A program made the translations under genes and the position numbers. Below are positions 42,757 to 47,852 of a stretch of DNA of 64,000 nt, piece after piece. Positions within the stretch are counted from its first letter, which is position 1. Each line of letters opens with the position of its first letter. The stretch lies in assembly GCF_009914755.1 (NCBI RefSeq), contig NC_060943.1. One strand, given 5' to 3'. Source of the stretch: the human T2T-CHM13v2.0 reference genome, Homo sapiens. Below the pieces are notes generated by a model, which was not told the origin of the DNA, did not search any database, and saw only the letters and a program-made list of their open reading frames with translations.

Positions 42757-44036
42757 GGAGCAGCTATGCATTGGGAAGCAATGCAGAAGACAAACCAATT
42801 AAAAAACAACTTGGAGTATCCTTTCACTTACATCTGTCTGAACTGGAGCTATTTCCAGATGAAAGGGTAATAAATGGATGTAATCAAGTTGAAAACTTTA
42901 TCAACCACAGTTCCTCTGTTTCCTGTCTTCAAGAAATGTCTTCCAGTGTCAAAACCTCCATTTTTAATAGGAATGATTTTGATGATTCTTCATTTCTCCC
43001 ACAAGAACAGAAAGTACACCTTAGAGAAAAACCTTATGAATGTAATGAGCATAGCAAAGTCTTTAGAGTATCTTCCAGCCTTACTAAACATCAAGTAATC
43101 CATACTGTAGAGAAACCTTACAAATGTAATTCATGCGGCAAGGTCTTTAGTCGCAATTCGCACCTTGCAGAACATTGTAGAATTCATACTGGAGAGAAAC
43201 CTTACAAATGTAATGTCTGTGGCAAGGTTTTTAGTTACAATTCAAACTTTGCACGACATCAAAGAATTCATACCAGAGAGAAGCCGTATGAATGTAATGA
43301 ATGTGGTAAAGTCTTCAGTAATAATTCTTACCTTGCACGACATCAAAGAATTCATGCTGAAGAGAAACCTTACAAATGTAATGAATGTGGTAAAGGCTTC
43401 AGTCATAAGTCATCTCTAGCAAATCATTGGAGAATTTATACTGGAGAGAAGCCTTACAAATGTGATGAATGTGGCAAGGCCTTCTATAGGATTGCGCTCC
43501 TTGTACGACATCAGAAAATTCATACTGGAGAGAAACCTTACAAATGTAATGAATGTGGAAAGGTCTTTATTCAAAATTCGCACCTAGCACAACATTGGAG
43601 AATTCATACAGGAGAGAAACCTTACAAATGTAATGAATGTGGAAAAGTATTTAATCAACTTTCAAATCTTGCACGACATCGAAGAATTCATACTGGAGAG
43701 AAGCCTTACAAATGTAATGAATGTGGTAAAGCATTTAGTGAGTATTCAGGCCTTTCAGCCCATCTTGTAATCCACACTGGAGAGAAGCCTTACAAATGTA
43801 GTGAATGTGGCAAGGCATTCAGACACAAGTTATCACTAACCAATCATCAGAGAATCCATACTGGAGAAAGACCTTACAAATGTAATGAATGTGGCAAGGT
43901 CTTCAATCGAATTGCACACCTTGCACGACATCGGAAAATTCATACTGGAGAGAAACCTTACAAATGTAATGAGTGTGGCAAGGCCTTTAGTCGCATTTCA
44001 TACCTAGCACAACATTGGACAATTCATATGGGATAG
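42757..44036 (+). CDS. ZNF480: ZNF480 terminal exon CDS: spacer and 12 finger units (10 canonical, 2 degenerate)
   Basis: TTTCCTAG acceptor at 42756, and the array ends AQHWTIHMG*. Spliced CDS from ATG 21657 is 15+127+129+1280 = 1551 nt = 516 aa. Confidence 0.95.
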
Positions 44037-44261
44037 AAACTACAAATGCAACAAATGCGTCAAAGAATTTAGTGTGCACTCAAGCCTTACTACCCATCTT
44101 TTATTCCATACTGCAAAGAAATTTTGCAAATGTAAAGAATATGACAAGGTCTTCAAACACAAGTTTTTCTAATAACTCATTAGAGAATTTATACTGGAGA
44201 GACTTCACAATTATAATAAATGTGTGGAAAAGTCTTCAAAAAAATTTCACACCTTGCAAAA
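44037..44261 (+). pseudogene. Decayed zinc fingers after the ZNF480 stop (part 1)
   Basis: Reads [38 protein letters not shown] and [13 protein letters not shown]. Confidence 0.88.
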
Positions 44262-47097
44262 GGAGATCTAAAAAACACAATCAGAAATGACAAAGGGGAC
44301 ATTACCACCAACCCCACAGAAATACGAAAAACCCTCAAAGATTACTATAAACACCTGTATGCACACAAACTAGAAAACCTAGAAAAAATTAATAAATTCC
44401 TTGAAAGATATAACCCCCCAAGATTGAACCAAGAAGAAATTGCATCCCTGAACAGACCAATAATGAGTTCCAAAATTTAATCACTAATTAAAAATCTATC
44501 AAACAAAACTCTGGACCAGACAGATTTATAGTTGAAGCCTACGAGATGTATAAAGAAAAGCTGTTACCAATCTTACTGAAACTGTTCAAAAACATGGATG
44601 CAGAGGGACTCCTCCCTATCTGATTCTATGAGGCCAGCATCATTCTAATACCAAAACCTGACAGGCACAATGAAAAAAGAAAACTTCAGGCTGGTACTCC
44701 TGACGAATATAGGTGCCAAAATCCTCAGCAAAATACTAGTAAACCAAATCCATCTGCACATCAAAAAGCTAATCCAACATTATCAAGCAGGCTTTAGTGT
44801 TGGGCTGCAAGGTTGGTTCAGTATACACAAATCAATAAATGTGATTTATCACATACACAGAACTAAAAACAAAAACCACATGACCATGATCATCTCTTTA
44901 GATGCAGAAAGGTTTTTAATAAAATTCAACATCCCTTCATTTTAAAAACCCTCAACAAATTACACATTGAGGGAACATACTTCAATAAGAACCATCTATG
45001 CTGGACTCACAGCCAAATTAATACTGAACAAGCAAAAGCTGGAAGCATTCCCCTTGAGAACTGGAAAATGACAGGGATGACCACTCTCACCACTCCGATT
45101 CAACATAGTACTGGAAGTCCTAAGCTTAGTGATCAGGCAAGATAAAGATATGAAAGGCATATATAAATAGGAAGAGGGGAAGTCAGTTTCTCTTGCAGAA
45201 GATATAATTCTGTATTTAGAAAACCTGTTGTCTCTGCCCAAAGGCTCCTAGATCTGATAAACAACTTCAAAAAAGTTTCAGGATACAAAATCTGTGTACA
45301 AAAATTAGTTGCATTTCTATACACCAGTAATGTCCAAGCTATGAACCAAATCAAGAATGGAATCCCATTCACAGTAGCCACAAAAAGTATAAAATACCTA
45401 GGAATACAGCCAACCAGGTAAGTGAAAGATTTCTACAATGAGAATTACAAAGCAGTGCACAAAGAAATCAGAAACAATAAAAATTGAAAAATATCTCATG
45501 CTCATGGATAGGAAGAATCAGTATTGTTAAAATACTGCCCAAAGCAATTTACAGAGCCAATGCTATTTCTATCAAACTACCAATGGCATTTTTCACAGAA
45601 TCAGAAGAAAACATTCTGAAATTTATTTGGAACCAGAAAAGCCCAACCTAAATAGCAAAAGCAATCCTAAGCAAAAAGAGCAATGTTTGAGGTATCACAC
45701 TACCCAACTTTAAACCATACTACAAGGCTACAGCAACTAAAACAGCATGGTACTGGTATAAAAAAAGACACATAGATCAATGGAATAGGTAAGAGAACCC
45801 AGAAATAAAGGCATATACCTACAACCATGTGATCCTCAACAAAACTGACAAGCAATGAAGTAAGAACTTCATTCAATAAGTGGTGCTGGCATAACTGGCT
45901 AGCCATATGCAGGATATTGAAACTGGACCCCTATCCTTCACGATATACAAAAATCAACTCAAGATGGATTAAAGACTTAAATATAAAACCTAAAAGTATT
46001 AAATTCCTAGAAGAAAACCCAGGAAATGCCATTCTGGACATAAGTGCTGGAAAAGACTTAATGATGAACACCCCAAAGCAATTGCAACAAAAACAAAAAT
46101 TGACAAGTGGGACCTAATTAAACTAAATAACTTCTGCACAGCAAAAGAAGCTATTTGCAGACTACAGAATGGGAGAAAATGTTTACAAACTGCATCTGAC
46201 AAAGATCTAATCCAGAATCTATAAAGAACTCAAACAAATCAACAATGAGAAAAACAACCCCATTAAAAACTGGGCAAAGGCCATGAATAGACCTTTCTCA
46301 AAAGAATACATACATGTGGCAATAAGCATATGAAAAAAATGGTTAATATCGCTAATCATTAAGGAAATGCAATCAAAGCCACAATGAGATACCATCTCAG
46401 ACCTGTCTGAATGGGTATTATCAGAATGGGTATTATTAAAAAATCAAAACATAGATGCTAGTGAGGCTGCAGAGAAAAGCAAATACTTATACACTGCTGG
46501 TGGGAATGTAAATTAATTCAGCCATTGTGGAAAGCACTGCAGCGATTTCTCAAAGACATAAAAGCACATAGCATTCAACCCAGCATCCCATTACTGGGTG
46601 TATACCTAAAGGAATATAATCATTCCACCATAAAGACAAACACTTGTATGTTCATTGCAGCACTATTCTCAATAGCAAAGATGTGGAATCAACGTAAATG
46701 CCCATCAGCAGTAGACCAGATAAAGAAAATTTGGTACATATACACCATGGAATACTATGCAGCCATAAAAAAGAACAAGACTGTGTCCTTTACAGCAACA
46801 TAGATGGAGCTGAGGCTCTTATCCTAAGTGAATTAATGCAGGAACAGAAAATGAAATATCCCATGTTCTCACTTATAAGTGGGAGCTAAACATTGATTAC
46901 ACATGGACTCAAAGAAGGGAACAGTAGACACGGGCTTATGGGTGGAGGTTGGGAAGAGGATGAAGATTGAATAACTGCCTGTTGGGTACTATGCTGATTA
47001 CCTGGGGACAAAATTAACTGTACACCAAACTCCTGCAACATGCAGTTGACCCATGTACACATACTCCTTGAACCTAAAATAAAACATGAAAAAAAGC
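44262..47097 (+). mobile_element. 5'-truncated LINE-1 (about 2.8 kb, older L1PA/L1PB type) inserted in sense inside a relic zinc finger
   Basis: ORF2 fragments [42 protein letters not shown] and WYIYTMEYYAAIKKN. 20-bp TSD AAATTTCACACCTTG(C/T)AAAA at 44242-44261 and 47098-47117. Confidence 0.93.
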
Positions 47098-47852
47098 AAA
47101 TTTCACACCTTGTAAAACATCAAGGAATTTATATTGCAAAGAAACCTTACAAATGTATGTAGCAAAGCATTTAGTGTGCCTTCAAGTCTTAATATTCATC
47201 AGGTAATCTGTAATGCAGAGAAACCTTACAGTTGTAATGGATATGGGGCTGGGCATAGTGGCTCACTCCTGTAATCCCAGCACATTGGGAGACCAAGGTA
47301 GGTGGATCACCTGAGGTCAGGAGCTCAAGACCAGCCTGGCCACCATGGTGAAAACCTGTCTCTACTAAAAATACAAAAATCAGTTGGGCATGGTGGCATG
47401 CACCTGTAATCCCAGCTACTCAGGAGGCTGAGGCAGGAGAATCACTTGAACCTGGGAGGCAGAGGCTGCAGTGAGTAGAGATGAAGCCACTGCACTCCAA
47501 TCTGGGCGACAGAGTGAGACTCTGTCTCAAAAAACAAACAAAAAAGATGTGGCAAGGTCTTTACTCAGAATTCAAACCTTGCAAATCATCACAGAATCCA
47601 TGCTGGAGAGCAACCTTACAAATGCAACATGCGTGGTAAGGTCTTTAATCAGAATTCACACCTTCCACAGCATCAGATAATTCATTCACGAGAGTCCTTA
47701 TAGAGTATGGAAAACTCTTCATTATGAGTTCTTATATTAATCAGCGCCAGAGTGTCGTACTAGAGAGAAATCATATAAATGTATGTGACACAGGCTTTAT
47801 CCAGCCCCACCAAGTCACTGGACGTCAACACATACATCTTTGAGGAAACCAT
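47098..47852 (+). pseudogene. Decayed zinc fingers (part 2), split by an Alu at ~47247-47545
   Basis: Reads [46 protein letters not shown]. The tail aligns with 12363-12540. Confidence 0.85.

What the first reader, a model, noticed from the sequence alone, without database searches (positions are those of the whole stretch)
43800..47852. ZNF766 and ZNF480 appear to have divided one ancestral finger array
Seen: the dead fingers after the ZNF480 stop match, in order, fingers still coding in ZNF766. [16 protein letters not shown] matches [24 protein letters not shown] matches [16 protein letters not shown] matches [17 protein letters not shown] matches TQNSHLANH. Conversely, ZNF766 lacks counterparts of about 8 middle ZNF480 fingers. 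The overlap is [18 protein letters not shown] and SRISYL/SRITYL. The last ZNF480 finger, [10 protein letters not shown], looks like a fusion of ZNF766 SRITYL and YLAQHW. The ZNF480 stop is a GAG>TAG change in a TGEK linker. Inference: reciprocal subfunctionalisation, with ZNF480 keeping the N-terminal fingers and ZNF766 the C-terminal fingers of an array of roughly 18-20 units.
Basis: partly seen in the sequence, partly recalled or inferred. Interest (0 to 1): 0.7.

Follow-up and report, generated by a model that had tools for sequence, protein, structure and literature searches.

The report
Paralogous zinc-finger genes lost different fingers
The dead zinc fingers behind the ZNF480 stop line up in order with live fingers of neighbouring ZNF766, but they match a nearby broken copy and other cluster genes as well or better, so this is most likely ordinary, independent finger loss in a seven-member primate gene family rather than a two-way division of labour.

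Summary
Six decayed finger units follow the ZNF480 stop, split by an L1 and an Alu. Five have ZNF766 counterparts in order, and ZNF766 lacks counterparts of 7-8 middle ZNF480 fingers.

The pairing is not exclusive. ZNF766 is the best match for 0 of 6 relic units among 103 paralog units. A 24-unit pseudogene fragment 145 kb away matches at least as well and carries both the middle and the terminal fingers. ZNF610 is truncated one finger earlier and is just as complementary to ZNF766. Ten of 12 cluster genes examined carry dead fingers behind their stop. One relic finger is coding in neither gene. The proposed fusion finger is not supported, and a 2-base deletion sits beside the stop.

The relic has decayed to neutral depth (13% vs 12%), so the loss was early. 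Published ChIP data give unrelated primary targets: LTR8 for ZNF480, THE1/MST for ZNF766, and other elements for four further paralogs.

Best reading (0.75): independent deletion and truncation of a repeat-built ancestral array, then retargeting to different transposons. True reciprocal subfunctionalisation stays possible (0.15) but untested.

The parts
11253..12385 (+). ZNF766 finger exon, coding part: spacer plus units Z0-Z9. Z0 is degenerate and Z1 has lost its last His in human.
   Evidence: same 10-unit array in Saimiri ZNF766
11705..11872 (+). ZNF766 Z2-Z3, two fingers of the A10 type, likely a tandem duplicate (or Z2 answers to A5)
   Evidence: both best-match A10 (73/84, 77/84); grouped 97/57
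11873..12376 (+). ZNF766 Z4-Z9, live counterparts of ZNF480 A11 and of relics A12, A13, A14, A16, A17; closer to PSI (Z5-Z9 86.2%) than to the ZNF480 relic (80.4%)
13274..13560 (+). ZNF766 3' flank homologous to 48403-48693
   Evidence: 81% over 295 columns
42757..44036 (+). ZNF480 finger exon, coding part: spacer, degenerate A0, fingers A1-A11
43707..43958 (+). ZNF480 A8-A10, a live copy of the same repeated module type whose next copy (A12-A14) is dead
   Evidence: a plain global alignment pairs ZNF766 11954-12224 with 43704-43974 at 85%; unit types
44034..44041 (+). TAG stop in the linker and adjacent 2-base deletion
44041..44261 (+). relic fingers A12, A13 and the 5' half of A14, inside the 3' UTR
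44262..47097 (+). 5'-truncated L1 inserted into A14; 20-bp target-site duplication 44242-44261 / 47098-47117 with 1 mismatch; carries AATAAA at 47078, 39 bases before the annotated transcript end (47117)
   Evidence: best 39 other genomic copies scored are 78-82% identical; L1 label from the ORF2-like translation, recalled
47118..47700 (+). 3' half of A14, then A15, A16 (split by an Alu at about 47247-47545) and A17, the ancestral last finger; all beyond the annotated transcript end
   Evidence: (terminal-finger clade of 6 rows, 100/99)
47701..48693 (+). degenerate tail and 3' flank shared by the subfamily, with a second Alu at about 47854-48151

Best explanation
ZNF480 carries six dead fingers behind its stop and ZNF766 lacks most of ZNF480's middle fingers, most likely because these two genes, ZNF610 and a now-broken fourth copy each independently lost different parts of one long ancestral array and were then likely retargeted to different transposons. 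Shown: the unit order, the stop and 2-base deletion, the L1 and Alu insertions, the paralog matches and the neutral-depth decay. Inferred: a burst of duplications before about 43 million years ago copied an array of about 18-24 units built from a repeated module (xxSHLAxH, SxLTxHLxIH, RHKxSLTxH, xxIxHLARH). ZNF766 shortened by several in-frame whole-finger deletions and kept the ancestral end. ZNF480 shortened from the 3' end, where the L1 supplied a new polyadenylation signal and the stop or frameshift ended the frame after A11; the order of these events is not resolved. Each gene kept a different copy of the module, with changed contact residues. Each now works as a separate KRAB repressor on its own retroelement family (published binding: LTR8 versus THE1/MST).
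For: Relic 44037-44260 matches PSI (79%, 182 bits) above ZNF766 (77%, 160 bits) among 52 matches. Collinear pairing gives 16 pairs with PSI and 10 with ZNF766. ZNF766 is the best match for 0 of 6 relics among 103 units, and for 1 of 6 among 61 coding fingers. ZNF610 codes T0-T8 and stops at the A10 counterpart, with the same C-terminus in marmoset. Ten of 12 genes checked have finger units of 70 bases or more behind the stop. ZNF766, ZNF480, ZNF610 and PSI are unresolved in the combined tree (47/60). A crude null gives a 0-2 unit overlap in 24 of 121 truncation/deletion combinations. Contact residues differ in both shared fingers: RAHR vs RAYR/RTYR and RSYQ vs SSYQ. Six paralogs have six different primary targets.
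Against: The 5' non-finger DNA favours ZNF766+ZNF480 as sisters (85/93; 22 of 42 informative sites, p 0.008), and Z1 groups with A4 (83/77). The relic died early (21/160 = 13.1% framework changes vs 61/501 = 12.2% neutral), as a partition model predicts. Several retained fingers keep the inferred ancestral contacts (A1, A9, Z8). Relic decay adds noise to best-match ranks, the unit score is ad hoc, and the finger tree has only 84 columns with an unsettled bootstrap. No ZNF480 ortholog was retrieved.
Confidence: 0.75

Rival explanations
1. Reciprocal subfunctionalisation: one ancestor recognised two element families with its N- and C-terminal finger blocks, and ZNF480 and ZNF766 were both preserved because each kept one block.
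For: Near-complementary coding sets with a two-finger overlap; sister signal in 5' DNA; early death of the relic; ZNF766 array fixed before the New World monkey split; both genes and both target families dated to the simian ancestor in published tables.
Against: ZNF610 shows the same complementarity with ZNF766, and a full-length copy (PSI) existed and died. A15 codes in neither gene. Finger-region sites favour ZNF766+PSI (8 vs 2 vs 3). ZNF610 shares the A1, A2 and A7-A10 types yet binds MER1A, so finger ancestry does not preserve target. LTR8 is absent from the 28 ZNF766 subfamily rows, and ZNF480's 2 rows are LTR8A and LTR8B, which argues against halves of one site.
Confidence: 0.15
2. ZNF766 did not lose most of the middle; ZNF480 gained it by internal duplication after the split.
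For: A4-A6 resemble A9-A11 (A5:A10 score 14; A6 falls in the A11 clade, 97/86). PSI has no partner for A4 or A5. A plain global alignment prefers to pair Z3-Z7 with coding A5-A10.
Against: A1, A2, A7, A8 and A9 have collinear partners in ZNF610 and PSI. The SGLxAH finger type has 13 members in all six other arrays and none in ZNF766. With PSI as bridge, Z4-Z6 align to P16-P18 at 89%. The reading may hold for A4-A6 only.
Confidence: 0.07
3. The similarity reflects later gene conversion among neighbours rather than inheritance, so the finger map does not record the duplication.
For: Z5 and P17 are 79/84 identical and share G at helix position -1 where Saimiri ZNF766, the relic and ZNF528 have V. 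The 5' and finger-region signals disagree.
Against: Relic-to-ZNF766 identity (80%) is no higher than non-finger identity (82.5%). In the Z5 block P17 shares one derived site with Z5 and one with A12.
Confidence: 0.03

Closest known systems
Finger-array turnover in clustered KRAB zinc-finger genes, including degenerate fingers left after an in-frame stop (PMC2865497, passages seen; ZNF252 has eleven such motifs in its 3' UTR)
   Same: Premature stop with a row of complete and degenerate fingers behind it; duplication and deletion of whole fingers among paralogs.
   Different: Here the relic can be mapped unit by unit onto live fingers of several paralogs, and an L1 cuts it and appears to supply the 3' end.
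Lineage-specific finger gain and loss in primate KZNF genes (PMC3126818, passages and Table 2 seen)
   Same: Finger loss is frequent, for example 69 proteins on the human-chimpanzee stem in that table.
   Different: That study compares orthologs and does not name ZNF480 or ZNF766 (0 occurrences).
Paralog retargeting, as in ZFP69/ZFP69B (PMC10547255, passages and supplements seen)
   Same: Neighbouring paralogs with related fingerprints and different primary transposon targets.
   Different: ZFP69 and ZFP69B share a secondary target and motif. No shared target was seen for ZNF480 and ZNF766 in the rows read, and their arrays differ mainly by deletion.
Subfunctionalisation by complementary degenerative loss (duplication-degeneration-complementation model; recalled)
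   Same: Early, largely complementary loss of parts in two duplicates.
   Different: At least four copies took part, one unit codes in neither gene, and the ancestral function is unknown.

Membership tests
Truncated KRAB zinc-finger array with 3' relic fingers | In-register finger units behind the stop | tested here: met
   six units A12-A17
Truncated KRAB zinc-finger array with 3' relic fingers | Units decay neutrally while upstream fingers stay constrained | tested here: met
   21/160 vs 8/328 framework changes; neutral 61/501
Truncated KRAB zinc-finger array with 3' relic fingers | Common among cluster paralogs | tested here: met
   10 of 12 genes
Reciprocal subfunctionalisation | The two genes are each other's closest paralogs | tested here: inconclusive
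   85/93 on 5' DNA without PSI, 78/86 on all non-finger DNA, 47/60 with fingers added
Reciprocal subfunctionalisation | Ancestor carried both sets of parts | tested here: met
   PSI and ZNF610 carry the middle block; PSI and the relic carry the terminal block; A4-A6 uncertain
Reciprocal subfunctionalisation | The two genes together retain all ancestral parts | tested here: not met
   A15/P20 codes in neither; the P5/T3 and P6/T4 module codes in ZNF610 but has no positional partner in either gene
Reciprocal subfunctionalisation | Complementarity is specific to the pair and beyond chance | tested here: not met
   ZNF610 equally complementary; 24 of 121 under a crude null; ZNF766 best match for 0 of 6 relics
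Reciprocal subfunctionalisation | Losses happened soon after duplication | tested here: met
   relic at neutral depth; L1 copies 78-82% identical, like the paralogs; Saimiri array; confidence interval wide (8-19%)
Reciprocal subfunctionalisation | Ancestor performed both present functions, now partitioned | not testable with these tools
   needs binding assays; published targets differ, which fits partition of two targets or new targeting alike

The most novel reading that the evidence does not exclude
A single long primate KRAB repressor once silenced two unrelated retroelement families with two finger blocks, and duplication split it into ZNF480 (LTR8) and ZNF766 (THE1/MST), an L1 insertion cutting off one block at the gene's birth. 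The dead fingers and the 24-unit pseudogene preserve enough of the array to infer that ancestor and test the split directly.
Probability: 0.15. Interest if true: 0.55.

Novelty: new member of a known kind. Interest (0 to 1): 0.25.

Why it matters
As found, it is a well-preserved example of a known process. Relic fingers and a pseudogene let one trace how a single array gave six repressors with six different transposon targets. If the partition reading were true, it would be a concrete case of a long zinc-finger protein holding two separable specificities, and would make the open question of retention by partition versus new targeting testable in one family.

Tried and rejected
Fusion origin of A11 from Z3 and Z4: rejected. 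The A10-A11-A12 adjacency also occurs in ZNF610 and ZNF528.

Stepwise death, with the L1 first and the stop much later: not seen. Decay is 7/53 before the L1 and 10/81 after it, so the order is unresolved.

Plain global alignment as the dot-plot: it chose a different register (Z3-Z7 on coding A5-A10). I set it aside in favour of the PSI-bridged and tree-based register, but it shows the module repeat.

Ortholog searches: three database searches and one profile search returned no ZNF480 ortholog and no long intact member of this subfamily. I read 15 hits by eye and screened all fetched proteins by motif. These searches were crowded by generic finger arrays, so the blank is weak. Hits named ZNF480 from gibbon are ZNF610 by sequence.

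Whole-gene blastn was swamped by Alus and its output was cut.

Literature: no paper on this pair's finger history was found in searches. The three papers naming both genes mention each once (listing only). PMC10480687's one supplement had no mention. Two older papers on primate KZNF paralogs that I recall could not be read and may bear on novelty. bioRxiv supplements were not consulted.
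Full report
Observation. ZNF766's finger exon encodes ten units, Z0-Z9 (11537-12376). ZNF480's encodes a degenerate A0 and fingers A1-A11, ending at TAG 44034-44036. Behind the stop lie six decayed units, A12-A17. A14 is split by a 2.8-kb L1 with a 20-bp target-site duplication (44242-44261 / 47098-47117, one mismatch) and A16 by an Alu. 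Five relic units pair in order with Z5, Z6, Z7, Z8 and Z9 at 80.4%. The order test gives p 0.004 with A10-A11 included and p 0.075-0.078 for the relics alone. The 3' flanks are homologous. ZNF766 has no counterpart for A1-A3, A6-A9 and possibly A5. The core observation therefore stands.

Corrections. ISHLAKHQ exists only after removing the L1. A 2-base deletion four bases after the TAG would end the array without the stop. A15 has no ZNF766 partner. A11 is best read as the counterpart of Z4, not a Z3/Z4 fusion: it groups with Z4 and P16, Z2 and Z3 group together, and the best fusion point lies before the helix, where five other units fit equally.

The wider family. Searching the genome with the relic gave, as best non-self hit, a minus-strand fragment at C19:55558190 (79%, 182 bits) ahead of ZNF766 (77%, 160 bits). 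This fragment, PSI, has 24 units with many stops and frameshifts. It holds both the middle fingers and the terminal fingers. Its 5' side is replaced by an Alu and retrovirus-like DNA (labels recalled). It is not among the 43 chr19.9 rows of PMC10547255 Table S1. ZNF610, ZNF880, ZNF528 and ZNF534 share the first unit and the module types, and the last three also share the terminal finger. Names of genes beyond the hub's table were assigned by coordinate offset from that Table S1.

Is the pairing exclusive? No. ZNF766 is the best match for 0 of 6 relic units among 103 units of six paralog arrays, with ranks 2, 12, 8, 4, 4 and 5. Among 61 coding fingers it is best for 1 of 6, A12. Collinear alignment gives 16 pairs with PSI against 10 with ZNF766. 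These ranks are noisy because relics have decayed and the score is ad hoc. Non-finger identity is 82.5% for ZNF766-ZNF480 and 82.5% for ZNF766-ZNF610. The 5' DNA favours ZNF766+ZNF480 (85/93; 22 vs 11 vs 9 sites), the finger region favours ZNF766+PSI (8 vs 2 vs 3), and the combined tree leaves ZNF766, ZNF480, ZNF610 and PSI unresolved. PSI lacks the 5' DNA, so that test could not include it.

Did ZNF766 lose the middle? Mostly yes. A1, A2, A7, A8 and A9 have partners in ZNF610 and PSI, and the SGLxAH finger type occurs in all six other arrays but not in ZNF766. Against PSI, ZNF766 shows four finger-sized gaps. A4-A6 may be an internal duplicate of A9-A11. The array is built of a repeated module, so a plain alignment pairs Z5-Z7 with live A8-A10 at 85%. 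Each gene thus kept a different copy of one module type, with different contact residues.

Timing. Framework positions in the relic show 21/160 changes (13.1%, interval 8-19%), against 8/328 in the coding fingers and 61/501 in ZNF480's non-coding flanks. The best-scoring L1 copies are 78-82% identical (39 other copies among 40 candidates scored of 10,771), like the paralogs. The truncation is therefore about as old as the gene (inference). The L1's AATAAA (47078) lies 39 bases before the annotated transcript end, so it likely supplied the new 3' end. Squirrel monkey ZNF766 has the same ten-unit array, and marmoset ZNF610 the same truncated end. No ZNF480 ortholog was retrieved.

How surprising is complementarity? 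Ten of 12 genes checked carry finger units behind their stop; only ZNF766 and ZNF528 do not. ZNF610 stops coding at the A10 counterpart, so it too complements ZNF766. A crude uniform null gives a 0-2 unit overlap in 24 of 121 cases for one pair. A15 codes in neither gene.

Function. In PMC10547255 (supplement rows seen) the primary targets are LTR8A for ZNF480 and THE1B/MSTB for ZNF766, both genes dated 43.2 million years. ZNF610 binds MER1A, ZNF528 L1PBa, ZNF880 L1M1 and ZNF534 HERVH-int. In PMC11458898 (supplement rows seen; 30 of 32 ZNF766 rows) ZNF480's two rows are LTR8A and LTR8B, and LTR8 is absent from ZNF766's 28 subfamily rows. PMC5705219 (passages) and PMC11359688 (passage) also place ZNF766 on THE1. 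This argues against two halves of one site. It cannot separate a two-target ancestor from new targeting, but ZNF610's different target with shared finger types favours the latter.

Comparison with what is known. Degenerate fingers behind an in-frame stop, and finger duplication and deletion among paralogs, are described in PMC2865497 (passages). Frequent finger loss in primates is tabulated in PMC3126818 (passages). Retargeting of paralogs is described in PMC10547255 (passages). Searches found no account of this particular reconstruction; two older papers could not be read.

Verdict. Real fossil fingers and real, roughly complementary losses, but within a multi-copy radiation where truncation is the norm. 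Independent loss with retargeting 0.75, reciprocal subfunctionalisation 0.15, gain in ZNF480 0.07, conversion 0.03. New member of a known kind; interest 0.25.

Noticed in passing
L002 / L026 / L027 (G000:C19:55556900-55559900, - strand): 24-unit KRAB zinc-finger pseudogene fragment (PSI), the longest collinear witness of the ZNF480/ZNF766 ancestral array; 5' side replaced by an Alu and retrovirus-like DNA; not among the 43 chr19.9 rows of PMC10547255 Table S1.
   Followed up: partly
window 47078-47117: ZNF480's annotated 3' end coincides with the end of the L1 target-site duplication and follows the L1's AATAAA.
   Followed up: partly
window 44221-44495: The L1 ORF2-like frame continues in frame from the A14 helix for about 78 codons; may be chance (one in three).
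   Followed up: no
window 11621-11704 and 11957-12040: Human ZNF766 Z1 has lost its last His while Saimiri keeps it; Z5 position -1 is G in human and PSI but V in Saimiri, the relic and ZNF528, a contact-residue change by parallel mutation or conversion.
   Followed up: partly
L024:1670-1939, L044:753-1021, L043:107-313: KRAB-B exon region of ZNF534, ZNF528 and ZNF880 is 91-93% identical, against 77-87% in their other segments; possible gene conversion.
   Followed up: no
G000:C19:55477261-55477476: An extra KRAB-B-like exon at about the 5' end of ZNF528, between the ZNF880 and ZNF528 coding exons.
   Followed up: no
P0022, P0023: Gibbon proteins named ZNF480 by their source are ZNF610 orthologs by sequence.
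   Followed up: yes
L024:5532-6120: ZNF534 has a recent-looking run of near-identical fingers V10-V15 and about ten relic units behind its stop.
   Followed up: no
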